Source: a virus (taxonomy: Duplodnaviria > Heunggongvirae > Uroviricota > Caudoviricetes). Taken from it: a stretch of DNA of 5,791 nucleotides. A model generated the notes under the pieces. The model was not told the origin of the DNA. It saw only the letters and a program-made list of their open reading frames with translations, and did not search any database. The position numbers and the translations under genes are program-made. Each line of letters starts with the position of its first letter. The first letter of the stretch is position 1. Positions 1 through 5,791 of the stretch are shown here, one piece after another. Location: the IMG/VR virus record IMGVR_UViG_3300013903_000037. One strand, written 5' to 3'.

Positions 1-13
1 AACTCTGTTATTC

Positions 14-134
14 TCTGTAGTCGTGTAATTACTCGAAGAGAGAGCGGCTAAAGCTCAATTACACTCTGCTTTCCTCGTGTAATTTCACTAAGCCTCAATA
101 CAATTCCACTTCCTACTTCTGTAGTCGTGTAATT
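14..134. repeat. Iteron-like repeat array: exact 17-bp direct repeat TCTGTAGTCGTGTAATT at 14-30 and 118-134; third copy of the 10-bp core TCGTGTAATT at 75-84; inverted copy of the 8-bp core (AATTACAC) at 57-64
   Basis: Read directly from the sequence. Direct copies are spaced about 50-54 bp apart in a stretch with no ORF on either strand. Function (origin iterons or operator array) is inference. Confidence 0.7.
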
Positions 135-180
135 GTTTTCGGTGGAAAAGCCAGAGGCGACACCGAAAGAGAATTCTGAT

Positions 181-250
181 CTTATTAATCTTATCTATCT
201 TAGTTAATCTTCTTACTTTATCTTACTTACTTTATCTACTTTATTGTTAA
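181..250. repeat. AT-rich, pyrimidine-rich low-complexity tract with 10-bp periodic tandem units (TCTTACTTTA at 211-220, TCTTACTTAC at 221-230, then TTTATCTACT)
   Basis: Read directly. Strong strand asymmetry (T/C on + strand) and no ORF. Possible DNA-unwinding or bending element next to the iteron array. Confidence 0.55.
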
Positions 251-280
251 TAATAGCTTTATAAGCTCTGTGTAGCTCTC

Positions 281-338
281 TGACGCAAGAAACCGCATTC
301 AGAAAGGGAATCACCTTAGAAAAGTGTTCTTTGCGTCA
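281..338. promoter_or_regulatory. Imperfect inverted repeat TGACGCAAGA (281-290) / TCTTTGCGTCA (328-338), arms about 37 bp apart
   Basis: Read directly. Lies upstream of the first gene. Could be paired half-sites for a DNA-binding protein or a long-range stem. Function unknown. Confidence 0.35.
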
Positions 339-463
339 TAATGTGTTTTATGAAGGATTCAGAGGTGTTTCATAACAGAAATGTATTGAGGCATATTTTT
401 CTAAGCATTACCCAAATATATACGATGACTTTGATATTCCCTTTTAAAAAGTAAGGAGGACTA

Positions 464-742
464 TTGATACAGTATTTAATAAAAAGCAAAGTAGACAGAA
501 TTCAGTGTAATGACACAGGAAAACGCATCTACGAGACACTTGCTTACCTCTATAAAGGAAAGCCAACACCGCTAAAATATAGCGATGTGTTACATCGAGC
601 AGGGTGCTCTGAAGCTGGTTTAAAATTCTGGCTGAAACAGCTATCAAACTTCGGTGTTATAGAGATTAAAGAATTATCTTTCTCTACATTCAATCTCAAA
701 AGACTTTCTAAAGAAATAGAATTCATCTATTCCACTCTCTAA
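464..742 (+). CDS. Small (92 aa) putative winged-helix/HTH DNA-binding protein, TTG start
   Basis: ORF track 464..742. Strong Shine-Dalgarno AAGGAGGA at 453-460, though spacing to the TTG at 464 is short (3-4 nt). No in-frame ATG or GTG exists near the 5' end, so TTG is the only canonical start. The central segment (KYSDVLHRAGCSEAGLKFWLKQLSNFGVIE) has the look of a helix-turn-helix with a wing. Sits next to the repeat array. Confidence 0.5.
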   Translation: MIQYLIKSKVDRIQCNDTGKRIYETLAYLYKGKPTPLKYSDVLHRAGCSEAGLKFWLKQLSNFGVIEIKELSFSTFNLKRLSKEIEFIYSTL

Positions 743-783
743 AATCTCTCTATGTAATTAAAATATAAAAGGAAAACATTATT

Positions 784-900
784 ATGATAGTAGCTATGTA
801 TTGGTTATTGTTCTTTCTCACGTTAGAAGCATATTTCGGGGTGTTTTCCTTTAAAAGAAAAGGAAAAATAAATGGCAAAAAGAAAAAACAACGTTGTTAA
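784..900 (+). CDS. Candidate 38-aa small membrane peptide (MIVAMYWLLFFLTLEAYFGVFSFKRKGKINGKKKKQRC): hydrophobic N-terminal segment plus polybasic tail
   Basis: Hand translation; not in the ORF track because it is short. ATG at 784 preceded by AAAGGA (769-774) at about 9 nt spacing. Overlaps the start of the 872..1282 gene in another frame, so it could also be a chance ORF. Confidence 0.25.
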   Translation: MIVAMYWLLFFLTLEAYFGVFSFKRKGKINGKKKKQRC

Positions 901-1282
901 GAAAATCGGTGATTCAGCTTCTCTTCTAAGTAAACCTAAATCTATTCTAAGACGTAAAGACTTTAAAGAGCTAGTTACGCTCACCAAGCAAAATAGCGCC
1001 CCTGGCGAATGGAAAACAGAGATCATAGAACATTCTCCCTCTGTGCCTTGTGGAGATGAATATATCGCATTACAAGAAATCTTATCTTCAACACCTGGCG
1101 TGTTCTGGAAACCTAAAAAAAGAAAAGAGTATATCGTTGATAGCTCTGATTTACGCAAATACCAGATTTTAGGATTTGAAGACTATAACCACTACGTCGG
1201 TTATCTCGCCACAAATGGCCTAAATAATTTAGTTCCTGAATTCCAAATTTTAGATAATGCTGATCACTATGGAGACTTTTAA
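872..1282 (+). CDS. Hypothetical protein, 136 aa, strongly basic N-terminus (MAKRKNNVVKK...RRKDFK), possibly nucleic-acid binding
   Basis: ORF track. ATG at 872 preceded by a purine-rich AAGGAA (860-865). Stop TAA at 1280-1282 lies one base before the next gene's ATG. Same strand as all other supported genes. Confidence 0.6.
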   Translation: MAKRKNNVVKKIGDSASLLSKPKSILRRKDFKELVTLTKQNSAPGEWKTEIIEHSPSVPCGDEYIALQEILSSTPGVFWKPKKRKEYIVDSSDLRKYQILGFEDYNHYVGYLATNGLNNLVPEFQILDNADHYGDF

Positions 1283-1283
1283 T

Positions 1284-1622
1284 ATGAACAAAAACACATA
1301 TGACACAATTTACTCACTAATTAATTATTATGAGGATGATTACCTCCTGCCTTTAAACCGCGCTGAACTTGAAGCATACAAAGAAAACACGCCAGCGGCA
1401 CTAAATGAGGCGTTTAAACACTGGGATTTAGCTGTGAATGCCTTTGAGCACCTCTCTAAGCGTGTAGAGATGCTCTGTAAGCGTGAAAACGCATACCTGA
1501 CAGCCGATCAGATATGGGAGCTATCAAACTGGATAGAAGATATTGAATCTGATGTTCGCTATGTAGGAGATGGACTTGTTGAACTAGCTCAACGCTTAGG
1601 CGCTACTATCACAGAAGAATAA
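1284..1622 (+). CDS. Hypothetical acidic protein, 112 aa (track ORF 1257..1622 trimmed to the ATG with the best ribosome-binding site)
   Basis: GGAGA at 1271-1275, 8 nt upstream of ATG 1284. The earlier in-frame ATGs at 1257 and 1269 lack a ribosome-binding site and overlap the previous gene. By residue counting the protein has a clear excess of Asp/Glu over Lys/Arg, and its composition suggests mostly helix. Stop TAA at 1620-1622. Confidence 0.6.
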   Translation: MNKNTYDTIYSLINYYEDDYLLPLNRAELEAYKENTPAALNEAFKHWDLAVNAFEHLSKRVEMLCKRENAYLTADQIWELSNWIEDIESDVRYVGDGLVELAQRLGATITEE

Positions 1623-1651
1623 AAAAAGCAACAAAAAAGTTGTAAAATATC

Positions 1652-1680
1652 TTGACATTTCATCTATTGTATGTTAATAT
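1652..1680 (+). promoter_or_regulatory. Near-consensus sigma70-type promoter: -35 TTGACA (1652-1657), 17-bp spacer, extended -10 TGtTAATAT (1672-1680), A/T-rich UP-like tract upstream (1621-1650)
   Basis: Read directly. Predicted transcription start around 1687-1689. Confidence 0.65.
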
Positions 1681-1686
1681 AATTAT

Positions 1687-1910
1687 ATGGGGGTGATTAT
1701 TTTTCCTTTATTGGTTCGATATTAAAAATTCTTCCTGTCATTAAAGGGGAGTAAAATCTCCGCTCCCCGCTTCTCCTCCTTAAGTAAATACTGTGTCATT
1801 ATTACCTCTTTTTTCCTTTGTTATGCATACATCTTGGAGTATGCATAACATAGGGTAATTACATAGGTATGAGTTAATAAAAGGCGGCTTTAAATGCTGC
1901 CTTTTATTTT
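1687..1910 (+). ncRNA. Putative structured non-coding transcript or leader of about 220 nt, running from the predicted start of the 1652-1680 promoter to the intrinsic terminator at 1879-1910
   Basis: No plausible ORF with a ribosome-binding site in this interval. Contains hairpin GGGGAG(1746-1751)/CTCCCC(1763-1768), a single-stranded CU-rich anti-Shine-Dalgarno-like stretch TCCTCCTTA (1774-1782), a perfect 10-bp inverted repeat TTATGCATAC(1821-1830)/GTATGCATAA(1839-1848), and the terminator hairpin. Existence of a discrete RNA is inference. Confidence 0.3.
1879..1910 (+). terminator. Intrinsic (rho-independent) terminator: stem AAAAGGCGGC / GCTGCCTTTT with 7-nt loop, followed by TTTTATTTT
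   Basis: Read directly: 6 G/C-rich pairs including one G-U, extended by A-U pairs, then a T-run. Moderate predicted strength, so it may act as a partial or regulated terminator. Confidence 0.55.
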
Positions 1911-1972
1911 GCCCGTTATGCAACTTAAAAGTTGTATTTCTTACTTTAAACAAGGTAACAAGGTTTATATAA

Positions 1973-2185
1973 ATGTTGTTCTTAAATGATAAAGAGCAAA
2001 TCATCAAGTATAAAGATGAAATGCTGAAAATTAATCCACAAATTACCGAAATGGTAGCTAAATACGCTGGGTGTTCTGTCGAGGAAGTAGAAAGATGTGT
2101 TGAAAAATATTTTTCTCCTTCTTCTCCGTCTACACCTTCCCTTAATGAATTAATCAAATTAAAAGCTAAGGAGATTACTAAATGA
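1973..2185 (+). CDS. Hypothetical protein, 70 aa
   Basis: ORF track. Weak ribosome-binding site (AAGG at about 1961-1964). Stop TGA (2183-2185) overlaps the ATG (2182-2184) of the next gene, which suggests translational coupling. Start codon uncertain; internal ATGs exist. Confidence 0.45.
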   Translation: MLFLNDKEQIIKYKDEMLKINPQITEMVAKYAGCSVEEVERCVEKYFSPSSPSTPSLNELIKLKAKEITK

Positions 2186-2550
2186 TTATTGATTTAGACA
2201 CTCTGTTTCCAGGTCGAAATCGAAAGACTTTCACAGATATTGTAAGTTATTGTACTGATCCGTTTGCCTCTGTAGAAAGCAAGGTTTTTGCTTCTCTTCC
2301 TGCTGATGTTGAGTGCGGCGACTTGATCACCAGCACTGGCGCTAAATATGAATCAGGAGATGATATCTATGTTGTTATGAGTGAATTTGTAACGGCTGGA
2401 GAAAACAAGCCTGTAGATGTGCTACGTAGCAATGCTGGGCTTGTATGCATCAAAGCTGATGCCCTGAATGCTGTAAGTGAAGCAGCAAAAACAGCATTAA
2501 TTAAAAAAGGCTTTCAGCTTGAAGGCTTTAATACGGTTTTCACTTCTTAA
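2182..2550 (+). CDS. Hypothetical protein, 122 aa, immediately upstream of the major capsid gene (positional candidate for a scaffolding, decoration or other head-associated protein)
   Basis: ORF track. Good ribosome-binding site TAAGGAG (2167-2173), 8 nt before ATG 2182. Function is assigned from position only. Confidence 0.6.
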   Translation: MIIDLDTLFPGRNRKTFTDIVSYCTDPFASVESKVFASLPADVECGDLITSTGAKYESGDDIYVVMSEFVTAGENKPVDVLRSNAGLVCIKADALNAVSEAAKTALIKKGFQLEGFNTVFTS

Positions 2551-2568
2551 TAAAAGGAATAATAATAA

Positions 2569-3597
2569 ATGATTCTAGGTAATGATTACGTTGATTTAGC
2601 TCCTTTGTTCTCTGCGCATAGCACTAGAAACTATCTACTGTCTACCCTTGACTTCACTGATCCGGTGGGCGTTAGTTCTCATAAAGTAGCTGTTTCCCAG
2701 CTTGTCGAAAGCAACGAATCTCTCTTTAACAAAGAGACAAGCCGTTTTAGTTCTGAACACAATGTTACTAAGCGTGAACAAGGTAAAGAATGGCTTATCG
2801 AAATCCCGTATTTTCTTCGTGAAGATGTGATCCGTCCTTCTGATGTTCAAGGCAAACGTAAGTCTGGCACTGATTTTCAGGAAACACTCACTGATATTTA
2901 TGCGGAATATATCGCTAAACACCACGTAGCGTATCAGCGCACTAAAGAGAGCGTGCTGGCGGCTTCTTTGTTCTCTGGCAAAACTTACACGCCTAAAACT
3001 GATGATGTGTTAATTGAGTGGAGCAAGCTGTTTAACGTATCACCAATGAAAACCACGGTGAACGCTTCCAGCACGGACACCACGAAGATTTTTAAAGAAT
3101 TTGATCAGATTGCTACTAACATTTTTGAAATCACACAAAGCCAGGCGTCAGCGGTAGAAAGAATTGTTGTTTTCTGTAAACCTGACGCCTTCTCTGCAAT
3201 TCGATTCTCTGCTGGTATGGCAAACGCATTCCAGTATGTAAGCCCACTGGAAGAGGGGAACGTTGTGTATCAGCGTCGTGACCTGCTGCCAGGAGTGACA
3301 GCGTTCACTATTCCAGGAACTAACATCGATGTTGTTAAACTGGTAGATCCGCTACATCTGGCACATATGACCGCAGACGCTGTAGCGGTTCCGAAGTTTG
3401 CTAAAGGCTCTAACGTATATCAGAACATCTACGGGGCTGCTTCCAGCACCTTTGAACTGATTAATGCCGCTCCTGCTGAGGTGTATAGCTATAGCTATGA
3501 ATCTTCTCGTGGTGATGCTGTTAACGTTGTTACAGAGAATAGCCAGATGGTTGTAAACCACGGCGTTGGCTTCTCCGTTCAAATCACTGTTAAATAA
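2569..3597 (+). CDS. Major capsid protein, 342 aa, HK97-fold, apparently of the T7 gp10-like family
   Basis: ORF track. Ribosome-binding site AAAGGA (2553-2558). Recognition is from memory of T7 gp10A (345 aa), not a search: window VVFCKPDAFSAIRF (residues about 200-213) against remembered T7 VFYCDPDSYSAIL (about 206-218); window IEIPYFLREDVIRPSDV against T7 ITIDGLLTADVLIYDIE; similar length and C-terminal character. Followed by a strong terminator, as is typical of highly expressed capsid genes. Confidence 0.7.
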   Translation: MILGNDYVDLAPLFSAHSTRNYLLSTLDFTDPVGVSSHKVAVSQLVESNESLFNKETSRFSSEHNVTKREQGKEWLIEIPYFLREDVIRPSDVQGKRKSGTDFQETLTDIYAEYIAKHHVAYQRTKESVLAASLFSGKTYTPKTDDVLIEWSKLFNVSPMKTTVNASSTDTTKIFKEFDQIATNIFEITQSQASAVERIVVFCKPDAFSAIRFSAGMANAFQYVSPLEEGNVVYQRRDLLPGVTAFTIPGTNIDVVKLVDPLHLAHMTADAVAVPKFAKGSNVYQNIYGAASSTFELINAAPAEVYSYSYESSRGDAVNVVTENSQMVVNHGVGFSVQITVK

Positions 3598-3616
3598 TAT
3601 TTTTAACGTGTAATAG

Positions 3617-3652
3617 AGGCGTGGCGTGTATTCACGCTTCGCCTTTTTTTTT
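3617..3652 (+). terminator. Strong intrinsic terminator: stem AGGCGTGGCGTG / CACGCTTCGCCT (two G/C-rich helices around a small internal loop), loop TATT, followed by a run of 9 T
   Basis: Read directly. Located 20 nt after the capsid stop codon. Confidence 0.75.
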
Positions 3653-3686
3653 ATTTATTTTTTAAATTTTGAGAGGTGATTAAAAT

Positions 3687-3887
3687 ATGGAAGTGATTTT
3701 GAAATCAAAAAATGGTGTACACGTACATTTAGATGCTAATGATTCTAGAGGCTTGTTAAATCTGAAATATCTCTGTTCTCTCCTAGATGTTCCATATGAA
3801 GGAGTAAAAGCCCGTATGTTCAGATTAAACGAGAGTATTGATCAAGCTCTACACCATTTCTTAAGCAAAGAAGGTGGTAAAAAATGA
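3687..3887 (+). CDS. Hypothetical protein, 66 aa
   Basis: ORF track. Ribosome-binding site GAGGTGA (3673-3679), 7 nt before ATG 3687. Stop TGA at 3885-3887, 19 nt before the next gene. Confidence 0.55.
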   Translation: MEVILKSKNGVHVHLDANDSRGLLNLKYLCSLLDVPYEGVKARMFRLNESIDQALHHFLSKEGGKK

Positions 3888-3906
3888 TTAATAAGGGGGA
3901 TTTTAA

Positions 3907-5791
3907 ATGTTAGAAATTAACACTTCTAAAATTAAGAACACAGTTACATTTAGTGTAGATAAAGACAGCTTGAAAAAAGCGAAAGACTCTATTACAGGCT
4001 TAAAGGAATTCGCAGAAAATATCAAGCCAGCTAAATTAAGATTTGATATTGTCACTAAAGGCTATAAGAAAGCACAAAGTGAAGTAGACAAGATTGCTCA
4101 ACAGAAAGCTAAAACAGAAAAGCAGAATCAAAGAGCACAAGCTGCCGCAGCAAGAGCACAGGCAAGGCAACAGGCACAAATAGCAGCACGCAAGGAGAAA
4201 GCAGACTTAAAACTGTTAGACGTTGGATCAAGCATTAGTGCAATGCACCGTCTCTCTGTAGCGGAACAATACAAAGCTATTGCACAGGCTAGAGAAATTG
4301 CCCTCCAATATGAAAGAGGCGCTATTAGTCTGGCACGTATGAATAGCCAGATGAAACGCCTACAACAGCAACAACGTAAGATTAATGGCAACAGAAAAGC
4401 TCAATTAGCCCCCGTTAAGGGAGGAGGATCAGGGAATGCCGCCACTATGGGCGCTCTGTTATTTGGAGGCGCTACGGCTGCTGCTGGCGTGATGGCTGTT
4501 AGTAAAGCGTCGGAGTTTGTTAGTAGCAGTTTCGCTAACGCAGACACCCAAGGGGAGCTAATCCAACGTGCAAAGCTGGGTGGTGTAGACGTTAACCAGA
4601 TGTATAATATTACAGAATGGGCGTATAAAAACGGCGTTGACTCTATGATGGGTGATCAAGGGGCTAGAAAATACCTAGATCAGATGAAAGATGTTAGGGA
4701 ACGTGCCGCAAAATCCTATAGTGAAGCTGAATTGGTGAAAGACAAGAAAACCGGAAAATCAGGGAAATGGAAAGGCGGTGATAACGCTATTAATGAACTT
4801 CTAAACATCGGAGTTATTAACAAAAGCGACCTTAAAAAATTTGCTGATAATCCAGCCGGATTAATTTCTAAGGCTGTTAATGGAATGATGAAAAAAGGGT
4901 TTTCAGATTCTCAAATTGGACAACGTTTAGAAGACCTGGGCGATGATTTGATGCTTACATCAAAATATTGGCAACGTTCCGTTAAAGATGTACAAGAAAG
5001 TATTAACCAGCAAAAAGCCTCTGGAAAATGGCTAACAGAAACACAGCAAGACTCTATTGTTAAATTCAGAGAACTAAACAGACAGCTTTCACAGCTTTCT
5101 GATGCAAGACAAGTAGCATTCGTAGACGGCTTTATGAAATCTCTTGATCCAAAAGTAACGGAAGAGTTTTTGAAAAACCTTTCTAATCTCACTCCGTATT
5201 TTACGAAGCTGGGAGAAGCTACAGGAAGTCTCTTTGAGGCCATTATGAAGATTGTAAACTGGTTTAATCGTAATGATGATAAGACAGATGCTATTCAGAA
5301 AAATTTAGGTGATGCACCGCCATTAAGCAATGACGGAATGAAACAGAATCTTTCTAATCTCGTTCCTGATAAATATAAAGGCGCTGGCACTGCAACAACT
5401 ACACCTGATAATAGTCATTCTCTCTTTAACACGATTAAGGGATTGCTTTTCGATGATAATTCTTCTGTGTCAGATGTAAAAATGTCAGTCAGCGAAGCAC
5501 CGATAACCAATCTCAAACAGGGTGCTTTAAATAATCTTGCAATGACAACTCCGGCTTATAATTTATCTCCTGTGTTTAATCTGAATCCTACATTTGAAGT
5601 GGTAACAGAGGTTCCTCTTACTATTAATTCTGACACATCAAGATTAAGCGATTATGTGGATTTTACAGCGAGAGCAAGTCGGGATAGCTTCTTGAAATCA
5701 TTAACATTAACCAGCTTATCAGGACACGAAGATTATCAGGAAATAAAAGGCGTAAGATATCATCAGACAGATAAAGAACTTGTGCAGAAAG
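3907..5791 (+). CDS. Large virion-type protein, 3'-partial (at least 628 codons, no stop before the window end): N-terminal Q/A/R/K-rich predicted coiled-coil, Gly/Ala-rich hydrophobic glycine-zipper-like segment (residues about 172-199, nt 4420-4503), then a mixed Ser/Asn/Thr-rich region. Candidate internal core, ejection or tape-measure-like protein.
   Basis: Hand translation of frame 1 from ATG 3907 gives an uninterrupted reading frame to the end of the window. Absent from the ORF track, presumably because it has no stop inside the window. Ribosome-binding site AAGGGGGA (3893-3900), 6 nt before the ATG. Composition is typical of phage tape-measure or internal virion proteins. Confidence 0.7.
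   Translation, partial: MLEINTSKIKNTVTFSVDKDSLKKAKDSITGLKEFAENIKPAKLRFDIVTKGYKKAQSEVDKIAQQKAKTEKQNQRAQAAAARAQARQQAQIAARKEKADLKLLDVGSSISAMHRLSVAEQYKAIAQAREIALQYERGAISLARMNSQMKRLQQQQRKINGNRKAQLAPVKGGGSGNAATMGALLFGGATAAAGVMAVSKASEFVSSSFANADTQGELIQRAKLGGVDVNQMYNITEWAYKNGVDSMMGDQGARKYLDQMKDVRERAAKSYSEAELVKDKKTGKSGKWKGGDNAINELLNIGVINKSDLKKFADNPAGLISKAVNGMMKKGFSDSQIGQRLEDLGDDLMLTSKYWQRSVKDVQESINQQKASGKWLTETQQDSIVKFRELNRQLSQLSDARQVAFVDGFMKSLDPKVTEEFLKNLSNLTPYFTKLGEATGSLFEAIMKIVNWFNRNDDKTDAIQKNLGDAPPLSNDGMKQNLSNLVPDKYKGAGTATTTPDNSHSLFNTIKGLLFDDNSSVSDVKMSVSEAPITNLKQGALNNLAMTTPAYNLSPVFNLNPTFEVVTEVPLTINSDTSRLSDYVDFTARASRDSFLKSLTLTSLSGHEDYQEIKGVRYHQTDKELVQK

What the first reader, a model, noticed from the sequence alone, without database searches (positions are those of the whole stretch)
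1801..1859. Nested palindrome containing two copies of the self-complementary octamer TATGCATA
A perfect 10-bp inverted repeat TTATGCATAC (1821-1830) / GTATGCATAA (1839-1848) is flanked by a further complementary pair ATTACC (1801-1806) / GGTAAT (1854-1859). Each arm is itself palindromic (TATGCATA), so the element could be either a long RNA hairpin within the leader or small RNA, or two adjacent dyad-symmetric binding sites 18 bp apart for a dimeric regulator acting as a roadblock or operator downstream of the strong promoter.
Basis: seen in the sequence. Interest (0 to 1): 0.45.

Follow-up and report, generated by a model that had tools for sequence, protein, structure and literature searches.

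The report
Conserved hairpin in unannotated leader RNA
The palindrome is real and is most likely the main stem-loop of a roughly 220-base non-coding RNA, made from a near-consensus promoter and stopped at a terminator just before the capsid genes of a small, uncharacterised phage-like island found in many E. coli genomes.

Summary
The palindrome is at the stated coordinates. It is longer than reported: a perfect 12-bp inverted repeat (1819-1830/1839-1850) with an 8-nt loop, the longest in the window.

It lies at about +130 to +165 of a cassette with no ORF. The cassette is a near-consensus sigma-70 promoter (1652-1680), about 220 nt, then an intrinsic terminator (1876-1910). ORF70, ORF122 and a lambda-gpE-type major capsid gene follow.

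The window is a roughly 8-12 kb integrase-bearing island of E. coli. The cassette is present and unannotated in 307 of 5426 complete genomes.

Among 27 distinct variants the stem never changes, apart from a U-A/U.G toggle (13 versus 14) that pairs only on the + strand, and one G-to-U. Indels fall in the linkers. The octamer TATGCATA occurs nowhere else in the island, and the G variant breaks one octamer's symmetry.

Syntenic islands in other Enterobacteriaceae carry the same layout of promoter, structured RNA (370-920 nt) and terminator. One class has 37 covarying pairs. No Rfam family matches.

Best reading: an RNA stem-loop in a terminated leader or small RNA that gates the capsid module, analogous to lambda PR'-tR'/StxS. 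The operator reading is not supported. Better operator candidates are the GCAAC-N6-GTTGT dyads flanking the cassette. The function itself is inferred, not shown.

The parts
1628..1643 (.). Upstream dyad GCAACAAAAAAGTTGT (GCAAC-N6-GTTGT), centred about 52 bp upstream of the inferred start. Candidate protein-binding site.
   Evidence: One of only two matches in the window (0.25 expected). The position is mirrored by TAAC-N6-GTTA in class C locus L024.
1652..1680 (+). Near-consensus sigma-70 promoter: TTGACA, 17 bp, TG-n-TAATAT (extended -10), with an A/T-rich stretch upstream.
   Evidence: 10/12 matches, TG present. It is invariant in the relatives. The same TTGACA-17-TGn-(-10) design occurs in class C and class E islands.
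1687..1910 (+). Inferred non-coding transcript of about 220 nt, from the inferred start (about 1687-1689, (A)GGGG) to the terminator U-tract.
   Evidence: The only ORF is a 12-codon one whose ATG is lost in most relatives. Fold of 1687-1912: -66.8 kcal/mol, z = -5.2, 0/200 shuffles. No Rfam family matches. The ends are inferred, not measured.
1746..1768 (+). Hairpin 1: GGGGAGU / GCUCCCC with a 9-nt loop.
   Evidence: All 7 pairs are invariant in 27 variants, and the single 1-nt deletion falls in the loop.
1775..1782 (+). CCUCCUUA in a C/U-rich linker, identical to the last 8 nt of E. coli 16S rRNA (an anti-Shine-Dalgarno-like motif).
   Evidence: Sequence. A (CUC) copy-number variant exists. 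Related CCUCCU motifs are loop-exposed in classes B, C and E but are missing from that loop in L029. The 16S identity is from my own knowledge.
1801..1806 (+).
   Evidence: Lies in an indel-prone linker and is not conserved.
1814..1855 (+). Hairpin 2, the finding itself: core 12 bp 1819-1830/1839-1850, loop AUCUUGGA 1831-1838, extension 1814-1817/1852-1855.
   Evidence: 12 of 16 pairs never vary. Pair U1828-A1841 toggles U-A (13) / U.G (14). The two outermost extension pairs each change on one side in one variant and stay paired. One variant breaks G1820-C1849.
1854..1859 (+).
   Evidence: Invariant in 27 variants although its proposed partner varies.
1876..1910 (+). Intrinsic terminator: A-tract, GGCGGC 1883-1888, loop UUUAAAU, GCUGCC 1896-1901, then UUUUAUUUU.
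   Evidence: 13-bp stem in the fold. The stems are invariant and the one substitution is in the loop. The pattern scan does not list it (probably because the A/U extension of the stem uses part of the U-tract; my inference). Terminators occupy the same position in classes C and E.
1920..1935 (.). Downstream dyad GCAACTTAAAAGTTGT (GCAAC-N6-GTTGT), between the terminator and the ORF70 start.
   Evidence: The class C counterpart is at L024 7339-7352.
1973..3597 (+). Downstream capsid module: ORF70 (1973-2185), ORF122 (2182-2550) and the major capsid protein (2569-3597).
   Evidence: Pfam Phage_cap_E and phrog_29. No promoter-like site lies between the terminator and ORF70. The order is syntenic in all island classes.

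Best explanation
The palindrome is the main internal stem-loop of a roughly 220-nt non-coding + strand RNA. The stem is 12 perfect base pairs plus a short extension, with the loop AUCUUGGA.

The RNA starts at a near-consensus, probably constitutive sigma-70 promoter and ends at an intrinsic terminator placed directly in front of the capsid-gene module. The host element is a small integrase-bearing, phage-satellite-like island of E. coli.

Most likely mechanism, inferred: most transcripts stop at the terminator, which keeps the capsid module silent. The capsid genes are expressed only when RNA polymerase is made to read through, by an island- or helper-phage-encoded factor. The short terminated RNA accumulates as a by-product and may have a trans-acting role of its own, as with lambda PR'-tR' 6S RNA/StxS.

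Within that RNA the hairpin is a structural module: a folding, stability or processing element, or a factor-binding element. It is not a terminator and not a DNA operator.

Shown here: the sequence, the fold statistics, the promoter and terminator motifs, the conservation pattern and the synteny. Inferred: that the RNA is made, where its ends lie, and the gating.
For: - **Cassette layout.** TTGACA-17-TGtTAATAT lies at 1652-1680. A 13-bp GC/AU stem with UUUUAUUUU lies at 1876-1910. No promoter-like site lies between the terminator and ORF70.
- **Fold.** 1687-1912 has z = -5.2, and the hairpin alone z = -5.4.
- **Not coding.** The only ORF has 12 codons, and its ATG is ATA in most relatives.
- **Conservation in 27 distinct variants.** Hairpin 1, the core of hairpin 2 and the terminator stems are invariant. 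All indels fall in loops or linkers (9-nt, 9-nt and 17-nt deletions, a CUC repeat, a loop deletion).
- **Strand.** The one frequent stem substitution, A1841G, gives U.G on the + strand (14/27). It would give C.A on the - strand.
- **Constraint.** In most relatives the cassette is more conserved than the island as a whole, for example 98.2% versus 94.8% and 97.9% versus 94.5%.
- **Synteny.** Islands with capsid proteins 37-76% identical keep homologous flanking genes. In the same slot they carry a TTGACA-17-TGn(-10) promoter, 370-920 nt without ORFs, and an intrinsic terminator.
- **Structured relatives.** In class C, 37 of 97 predicted pairs show compensatory changes. The hairpin just before the terminator uses U.G pairs that only work on the + strand.
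- **Precedent.** A constitutive late promoter terminated immediately downstream yields a short RNA that acts as a regulatory sRNA (StxS, PMC7547250).
Against: - No expression data exist. The start site, the 3' end and the existence of the RNA are inferred from motifs.
- Class A shows no double compensatory change (0 pairs). The invariant stem could equally reflect a DNA-level constraint.
- No antiterminator was identified. No protein-family library (Pfam, PHROGs, NCBIfam, PADLOC) matched ORF92, ORF136 or ORF112, and PDB sequence searches of ORF136 and ORF112 gave nothing significant. The AlphaFold2 model of ORF136 was poor (pLDDT 63) and matched nothing.
- No sequence similarity was found to any phage late-promoter region.
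- No alternative antiterminator pairing with the terminator stem was seen by eye in the RNA, so read-through control is purely hypothetical.
- The hairpin sequence itself is not alignable with the RNAs of the other island classes.
Confidence: 0.55

Rival explanations
1. The cassette is a stand-alone trans-acting small RNA gene. The C/U-rich single-stranded linker with CCUCCUUA (1775-1782), or the GGA-containing hairpin loop, is the working part: base pairing to Shine-Dalgarno regions of island, helper or host mRNAs, or protein titration. The palindrome is a structural or protective stem. This does not exclude the leader model.
For: It has its own strong promoter and a terminator with a long U-tail preceded by an A-rich stretch, the usual sRNA architecture. 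The CCUCCUUA motif sits in a predicted open linker. Similar CCUCCU motifs lie in apical loops of the larger RNAs of classes B, C and E. The StxS precedent applies.
Against: The best internal target candidate, the ORF92 translation start region 453-483 (31 nt, 74% complementary), is not co-conserved with the RNA segment across relatives. No site in the window complements the hairpin loop beyond chance (6 found, 5.2 expected). The CCUCC loop motif is missing in L029. Only two GGA motifs are present, unlike CsrB-type sponges.
Confidence: 0.25
2. DNA operator or roadblock, the reader's second reading: two 8-bp palindromes TATGCATA, 18 bp apart, bind a dimeric regulator that blocks elongation from the strong promoter.
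For: Each arm is self-complementary. The stem sequence is invariant in 27 variants, with no compensatory change that would prove RNA pairing. The island encodes small candidate DNA-binding proteins (ORF92 looks like a winged helix by eye; a 217-aa annotated 'transcriptional regulator' is present in relatives).
Against: TATGCATA occurs only in these two copies in the window and in 19 kb of island L054. In 14 of 27 variants the 3' octamer is TGTGCATA, which is no longer a palindrome, while RNA pairing is kept. The site lies about 130-165 nt downstream of the start. The window's own island variant has lost the regulator gene yet keeps the palindrome intact. Better-placed, class-covarying dyads (GCAAC-N6-GTTGT / TAAC-N6-GTTA) flank the cassette.
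Confidence: 0.08
3. The hairpin is an RNase III (or other endonuclease) processing site that releases a shorter stable RNA or separates the leader from the downstream message.
For: With its extensions the helix reaches about 20 bp with small internal loops, the size class cut by RNase III (my knowledge). StxS and P4 CI/P1 C4 RNAs are all processed from longer leaders (my knowledge).
Against: The outer extensions that bring the helix to 20 bp are deleted in many variants. The conserved core is only 12 + 4 bp. Nothing here tests cleavage.
Confidence: 0.07
4. A chance or selfish palindrome with no function.
For: A 12-bp perfect inverted repeat arises in about 2% of shuffled windows. There is little divergence among the relatives.
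Against: It is invariant while the adjacent linkers accumulate several independent indels. It sits within a cassette that is more conserved than its surroundings in most relatives. The exact 28-mer is found only in these islands in the viral collection.
Confidence: 0.05

Closest known systems
Lambdoid late leader: PR' promoter, 6S RNA / StxS, tR' terminator (Q antitermination)
   Same: A strong promoter directly upstream of the structural genes. An intrinsic terminator within about 200 nt. A short structured RNA as the default product. It sits at the boundary between the early/regulatory and late modules. The short RNA can act as an sRNA (PMC7547250).
   Different: No sequence similarity to any phage record. 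No recognisable Q gene. No demonstrated Q-binding element or sigma-dependent pause. The host element is an 8-12 kb island without terminase or portal genes. Related islands have much longer (370-920 nt), covarying RNAs in the slot.
P4 CI RNA / P1-P7 C4 / N15 CA immunity RNAs (Rfam C4 family)
   Same: A satellite or prophage leader transcribed from a constitutive promoter. It contains a stable stem-loop RNA and ends in premature termination that keeps downstream genes off. The region is hypervariable between related elements.
   Different: No match to the Rfam model. No complementary target boxes for the hairpin loop or arms were found in the same transcript or window. The genes downstream are capsid genes, not replication or antirepressor genes.
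Lambda N / nut (boxA-boxB) and HK022 put RNA processive antitermination sites
   Same: An RNA hairpin between a strong promoter and a terminator. A second strong terminator after the capsid gene (3616-3650) would also need read-through if one promoter drives the whole array.
   Different: boxB hairpins are 5 bp with an A-rich pentaloop, and put has two adjacent stems. Here a 12-16 bp stem has an 8-nt loop, with no convincing boxA. The comparison rests on my recollection of those sites and was not tested with a model.
Large structured bacterial ncRNAs (ROOL, GOLLD, OLE, HEARO)
   Same: The relatives' RNAs are 370-920 nt, with many covarying helices, and sit on mobile or phage-like DNA.
   Different: No Rfam hit. 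The window's version is only about 220 nt. Every copy has a fixed position as a promoter-to-terminator unit in front of the capsid genes.

Membership tests
Intrinsic (Rho-independent) terminator | GC-rich hairpin immediately followed by a U-tract | tested here: not met
   The palindrome is A/U-rich and is followed by CAUAGGGUAAUUAC, not by U's. The real terminator is the separate hairpin at 1876-1910.
Operator pair for a dimeric regulator | Dyad symmetry of each half-site is conserved among relatives | tested here: not met
   The 3' octamer is TGTGCATA in 14 of 27 distinct variants.
Operator pair for a dimeric regulator | Site overlaps or adjoins a promoter, or recurs at other regulated promoters of the element | tested here: not met
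   It lies about +130 to +165 from the inferred start. There is no other TATGCATA in the window or in the 19-kb L054.
Structured RNA element (generic) | Folds significantly better than shuffled sequence | tested here: met
   z = -5.4 for 1795-1865 and z = -5.2 for 1687-1912, with 0/200 shuffles as stable.
Structured RNA element (generic) | Compensatory (both-sides) base-pair changes among homologues | tested here: inconclusive
   0 of 33 pairs show double changes in class A, where the sequences are at least 90% identical. There is only a U-A/U.G toggle. Class C RNAs in the same slot have 37 of 97 pairs with compensatory changes, but they do not align with this hairpin.
Lambda-type PR'-tR' late leader (Q antitermination) | Strong promoter plus an intrinsic terminator within about 200 nt, directly upstream of the structural genes | tested here: met
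   The same layout occurs in classes C and E.
Lambda-type PR'-tR' late leader (Q antitermination) | Q-family antiterminator gene adjacent; Q-binding element and sigma-70-dependent promoter-proximal pause | tested here: not met
   No Pfam, PHROG or NCBIfam hit for the upstream ORFs and no significant PDB sequence hit for ORF136 or ORF112. The pause and binding element cannot be tested in silico. A helper-encoded Q remains possible.
Lambda-type PR'-tR' late leader (Q antitermination) | Sequence homology to known late-promoter regions | tested here: not met
   blastn of 1630-1975 against 50,697 phage records gave no match.
P4 CI / P1 C4 antisense immunity RNA | Match to the Rfam covariance model | tested here: not met
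   No hit at E <= 1 across the window.
P4 CI / P1 C4 antisense immunity RNA | Loop or stem sequence complementary to target boxes in the same leader or operon | tested here: not met
   Loop complement: 6 weak matches against 5.2 expected. The 31-nt complementarity to the ORF92 start region is not co-conserved.
CsrB-like protein sponge | Many GGA motifs in hairpin loops | tested here: not met
   Only two GGA motifs in the 220-nt RNA (1748-1750 in a stem, 1836-1838 in the hairpin loop).
Any curated Rfam family | Score at or above the gathering threshold | tested here: not met
   Window: best hits have E 0.3-0.8 and lie elsewhere. Seven related loci give only a tRNA.

The most novel reading that the evidence does not exclude
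The slot between the early and capsid modules of this undescribed family of capsid-encoding integrative islands holds a new, fast-evolving family of structured RNAs (about 220 nt here, 370-920 nt in relatives). These RNAs would control read-through into the capsid genes. The invariant hairpin would be the recognition element for a processive antiterminator supplied by the island or by a helper phage. That would make it an RNA-based sensor coupling satellite capsid production to helper infection.
Probability: 0.25. Interest if true: 0.7.

Novelty: new variant of a known kind. Interest (0 to 1): 0.42.

Why it matters
If the reading is right, about 6% of complete E. coli genomes (307 of 5426) carry an unannotated, strongly promoted non-coding RNA on a mobile island that nobody has characterised. 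Relatives in Klebsiella, Enterobacter, Citrobacter and other genera carry larger structured RNAs in the same slot.

It would give a testable handle on how a minimal island is kept silent and switched on. This island has a capsid gene, a tape-measure-like gene, a Dit-like gene and an integrase, but no terminase or portal gene.

It would also add a second example, outside true lambdoid phages, of a terminated late leader that could double as a regulatory RNA. The hairpin alone is an ordinary structural feature. The interest lies in the cassette and the island around it.

Tried and rejected
- **Rfam.** The window at E <= 1 and seven related loci at gathering threshold matched nothing relevant.
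- **Trans-antisense pairing.** RNA 1780-1810 is 74% complementary over 31 nt to the ORF92 ribosome-binding region 453-483. I rejected this because the two sides vary independently among relatives.
- **Targets of the hairpin loop in the window.** At chance level.
- **More TATGCATA sites.** None.
- **Repeat of the 5' arm.** GTTATGCA recurs downstream of the terminator (1915-1922, I7). It is not conserved: the G is A in several variants.
- **Alignment of class A to class B RNA.** Not convincing.
- **Island identity.** My guess that the island is K-12 cryptic prophage CPZ-55 was wrong, since CPZ-55 has no capsid gene.
- **Neighbouring proteins.** PHROGs, Pfam, PADLOC and NCBIfam on the neighbouring ORFs, and PDB sequence searches of ORF136, ORF112 and ORF122, gave nothing beyond the capsid and tape-measure hits.
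- **ORF136 structure.** AlphaFold2 gave pLDDT 63, and Foldseek found no match with E below 1.
- **ORF112 homologues.** Only close relatives were found, too shallow for modelling.
- **- strand small ORF behind AGGAGG (the complement of CCUCC).** It is present only in some class C loci and absent in classes A and E (reading).
- **Literature.** Four full-text searches for this island or RNA found nothing specific.

Full report
**Observation**

The perfect inverted repeat is in fact 12 bp, TGTTATGCATAC 1819-1830 against GTATGCATAACA 1839-1850, around the 8-nt loop ATCTTGGA.

It is the longest perfect inverted repeat with a 3-20 nt loop in the window. Only 4 of 200 dinucleotide-preserving shuffles reach 12 bp. 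As RNA, 1795-1865 folds at -21.3 kcal/mol, against -8.7 +/- 2.3 for shuffles (z = -5.4).

The octamer TATGCATA occurs only in the two arms, both in the window and in a 19-kb locus holding a complete related island.

**Context in the window**

- A near-consensus sigma-70 promoter lies 140 nt upstream: TTGACA, 17 bp, TG-n-TAATAT, at 1652-1680.
- An intrinsic terminator lies 30 nt downstream: an A-tract, GGCGGC/GCUGCC, then UUUUAUUUU, at 1876-1910 (fold). The pattern scan does not list it, probably because the A/U extension of the stem uses up part of the U-tract.
- Between promoter and terminator the only ORF has 12 codons, and its ATG is ATA in most relatives.
- The 226-nt stretch 1687-1912 folds with z = -5.2.
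- No promoter-like site lies between the terminator and ORF70.
- ORF70, ORF122 and a capsid protein of the lambda gpE family follow. After a second strong terminator (3616-3650) come ORF66 and a tape-measure-like protein.

**What the window is**

No GenBank phage is similar at the DNA level; the only match is to the last 70 nt of the window. The nearest phage capsid proteins are 24% identical.

The window is an E. coli chromosomal island. 624 of 5426 complete genomes match part of it, and one matches 1-5726 at 100%. Annotated copies show an element of about 8-12 kb next to tRNA or other island sites. It contains:

- small regulator-like genes;
- the cassette;
- ORF70, ORF122 and the capsid gene;
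- ORF66 and a roughly 610-aa tape-measure-like protein;
- a Dit_like protein;
- a tyrosine integrase.

No terminase, portal or replication gene is annotated. Satellite-like is therefore my inference, not a demonstrated property. The cassette itself occurs in 307 genomes, always with no annotated feature under it.

**Conservation within the close family (class A)**

I collected 27 distinct variants of the cassette from viral, metagenomic and genomic collections.

- **Invariant parts.** The promoter hexamers, hairpin 1 (1746-1752/1762-1768), the core of the palindrome hairpin with its CCU/AGG extension, and the terminator stems are essentially invariant.
- **Where variation falls.** It is concentrated in loops and linkers:
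  - the number of 5' G's;
  - a 1-nt loop deletion in hairpin 1;
  - a CUC copy-number change in the C/U-rich linker;
  - two different 9-nt deletions in the linker;
  - a 17-nt deletion between the hairpin and the terminator;
  - a loop substitution in the terminator.
- **Changes in the core 12-bp stem.** A1841G occurs in 14 of 27 variants and turns U-A into U.G. One variant has a G1820U mismatch. U.G pairs only on the + strand; the - strand would have C.A. The change also breaks the symmetry of the 3' octamer.
ATTACC/GGTAAT is not maintained. Its 5' half lies in the indel-prone linker.
- **Limits.** There are no double compensatory changes, so strict covariation is uninformative at this divergence.
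- **Overall constraint.** In most relatives the cassette is more conserved than the island average, for example 98.2% versus 94.8%.

**More distant relatives**

Islands whose capsid proteins are 37-76% identical occur in E. coli and in Klebsiella, Kluyvera, Buttiauxella, Scandinavium, Citrobacter and Enterobacter. They keep homologues of ORF92, ORF136, ORF112, ORF70, ORF122, the capsid protein and ORF66 in the same order.

Between the ORF112 and ORF70 homologues, all of them keep a TTGACA-17-TGn(-10) promoter. The transcript starts at (A)GGG, runs through a long ORF-free stretch, and ends at an intrinsic terminator.

| Class | Loci or hosts | Approximate RNA length |
|---|---|---|
| A | the window and close E. 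coli relatives | 220 nt |
| B | E. coli | about 800 nt (L057) to 920 nt (L023, L028) |
| C | Kluyvera, Buttiauxella, Scandinavium, Citrobacter | 560 nt |
| D | L030 (Enterobacter ludwigii) | 400 nt |
| E | Klebsiella (L058) | 370 nt |

The classes do not align with one another.

Class C is clearly a structured RNA. RNAalifold finds 97 pairs, 37 of them with compensatory changes. These include a hairpin just before the terminator that is held by U.G pairs workable only on the + strand. No Rfam family matches.

A CCUCCU(U)A motif is identical, by my knowledge, to the 3' end of 16S rRNA. In class A it lies in the linker (1775-1782), and in classes B, C and E it is exposed in apical loops. It is missing from that loop in L029, so I treat it only as a lead.

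**Interpretation**

The evidence favours an RNA stem-loop on the + strand, inside a short non-coding transcript that ends at a terminator in front of the capsid module.

The arrangement is a strong promoter, a structured leader and a terminator at the early/late module boundary. There is no other promoter before the capsid genes, and a second terminator follows the capsid gene. The closest functional analogue is the lambdoid PR'-tR' late leader. Its short product, StxS, is an Hfq-binding regulatory RNA (PMC7547250).

I therefore propose that the cassette gates capsid-module expression, and that the short RNA may also act in trans. The hairpin would serve as a folding, stability or factor-binding module. 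This is inference. I found no antiterminator, no alternative antiterminator pairing, and no similarity to known late leaders.

**Rivals**

- **Operator.** This reading fails on recurrence, on position and on the symmetry-breaking variant. Better operator candidates are the two GCAAC-N6-GTTGT dyads that bracket the cassette (1628-1643 and 1920-1935). They are the only two in the window. Class C locus L024 has TAAC-N6-GTTA dyads at the same two positions, the only two in 17 kb.
- **Antisense target in the island.** A specific target, the ORF92 start region, was rejected because the two sides are not co-conserved. No target for the loop was found.
- **Still open.** An RNase III site, a protein-binding loop (GGA) and a pure trans-acting sRNA all remain possible.

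**Verdict**

The hairpin itself is ordinary. The unannotated cassette and the island family around it are the more interesting objects, and they are new relative to Rfam 15 and to the literature I could search.

Noticed in passing
window 1628-1643 and 1920-1935; L024 6719-6732 and 7339-7352: Two GCAAC-N6-GTTGT dyads bracket the promoter-RNA-terminator cassette and are the only two in the window. A class C island has TAAC-N6-GTTA dyads at the equivalent two positions, the only two in 17 kb. They look like class-specific protein-binding sites, possibly a looping pair.
   Followed up: partly
L023 6450-7375; L024 6775-7325; L026, L027, L029, L049-L053; L057 2514-3392; L058 2965-3335; L030 6890-7290: Related islands carry 370-920 nt ORF-free, promoter-to-terminator RNAs in the same slot. 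Class C has 37 of 97 predicted pairs with compensatory changes, and no Rfam family matches. This is a candidate new family of large structured RNAs.
   Followed up: partly
window 1775-1782 (and apical loops in L026, L052, L058, L028, L057): CCUCCUUA, identical to the 3' end of 16S rRNA (an anti-Shine-Dalgarno sequence), lies in the C/U-rich linker. Similar CCUCCU motifs are loop-exposed in other classes but absent from that loop in L029.
   Followed up: partly
window about 380-400 (junction); L054 about 6400-7900: Compared with most relatives, the window lacks about 1.5 kb that holds two small ORFs and a 217-aa annotated 'transcriptional regulator'. Contiguous copies at 100% identity, hence with the same deletion, exist in complete genomes such as E. 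coli CEA601S, so it is a natural variant that may be deregulated or defective.
   Followed up: partly
window 10-28, 70-85, 114-132: Repeated (T)GTAGTCGTGTAATT / CTCGTGTAATTT motifs in the ORF-free left end, followed by a T/A-rich stretch of short repeats at 179-243. Possibly iterons, an att/pac site or regulator sites.
   Followed up: no
window 784-900 (+): A 38-aa ORF with a hydrophobic N-terminal half and a lysine-rich tail (MIVAMYWLLFFLTLEAYFGVFSFKRKGKINGKKKKQRC). This is the general shape of small membrane-toxin peptides. It overlaps the start of ORF136.
   Followed up: no
window 3616-3650: A strong intrinsic terminator lies directly after the capsid gene, with no promoter-like site before ORF66 and the tape-measure-like gene. 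The downstream genes would therefore need read-through.
   Followed up: no
window 5727-5791: The last 65 nt depart from all E. coli copies, whose matches stop at 5726. Window 5721-5791 is 100% identical to a human faecal 'Bacteriophage sp.' contig (MT835527.1 28662-28732). This is a recombination junction inside the tape-measure-like gene, or a chimeric source.
   Followed up: no
L021 20001-27849; L054 3100-15308; L056; L058: The island family has an unusual gene set: a gpE-type capsid protein, a protein in the gpD position, a roughly 610-aa tape-measure-like protein, a Dit_like protein in some members, and an integrase with DUF6538. No terminase, portal, protease or replication gene is annotated. 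No paper describing it was found.
   Followed up: partly
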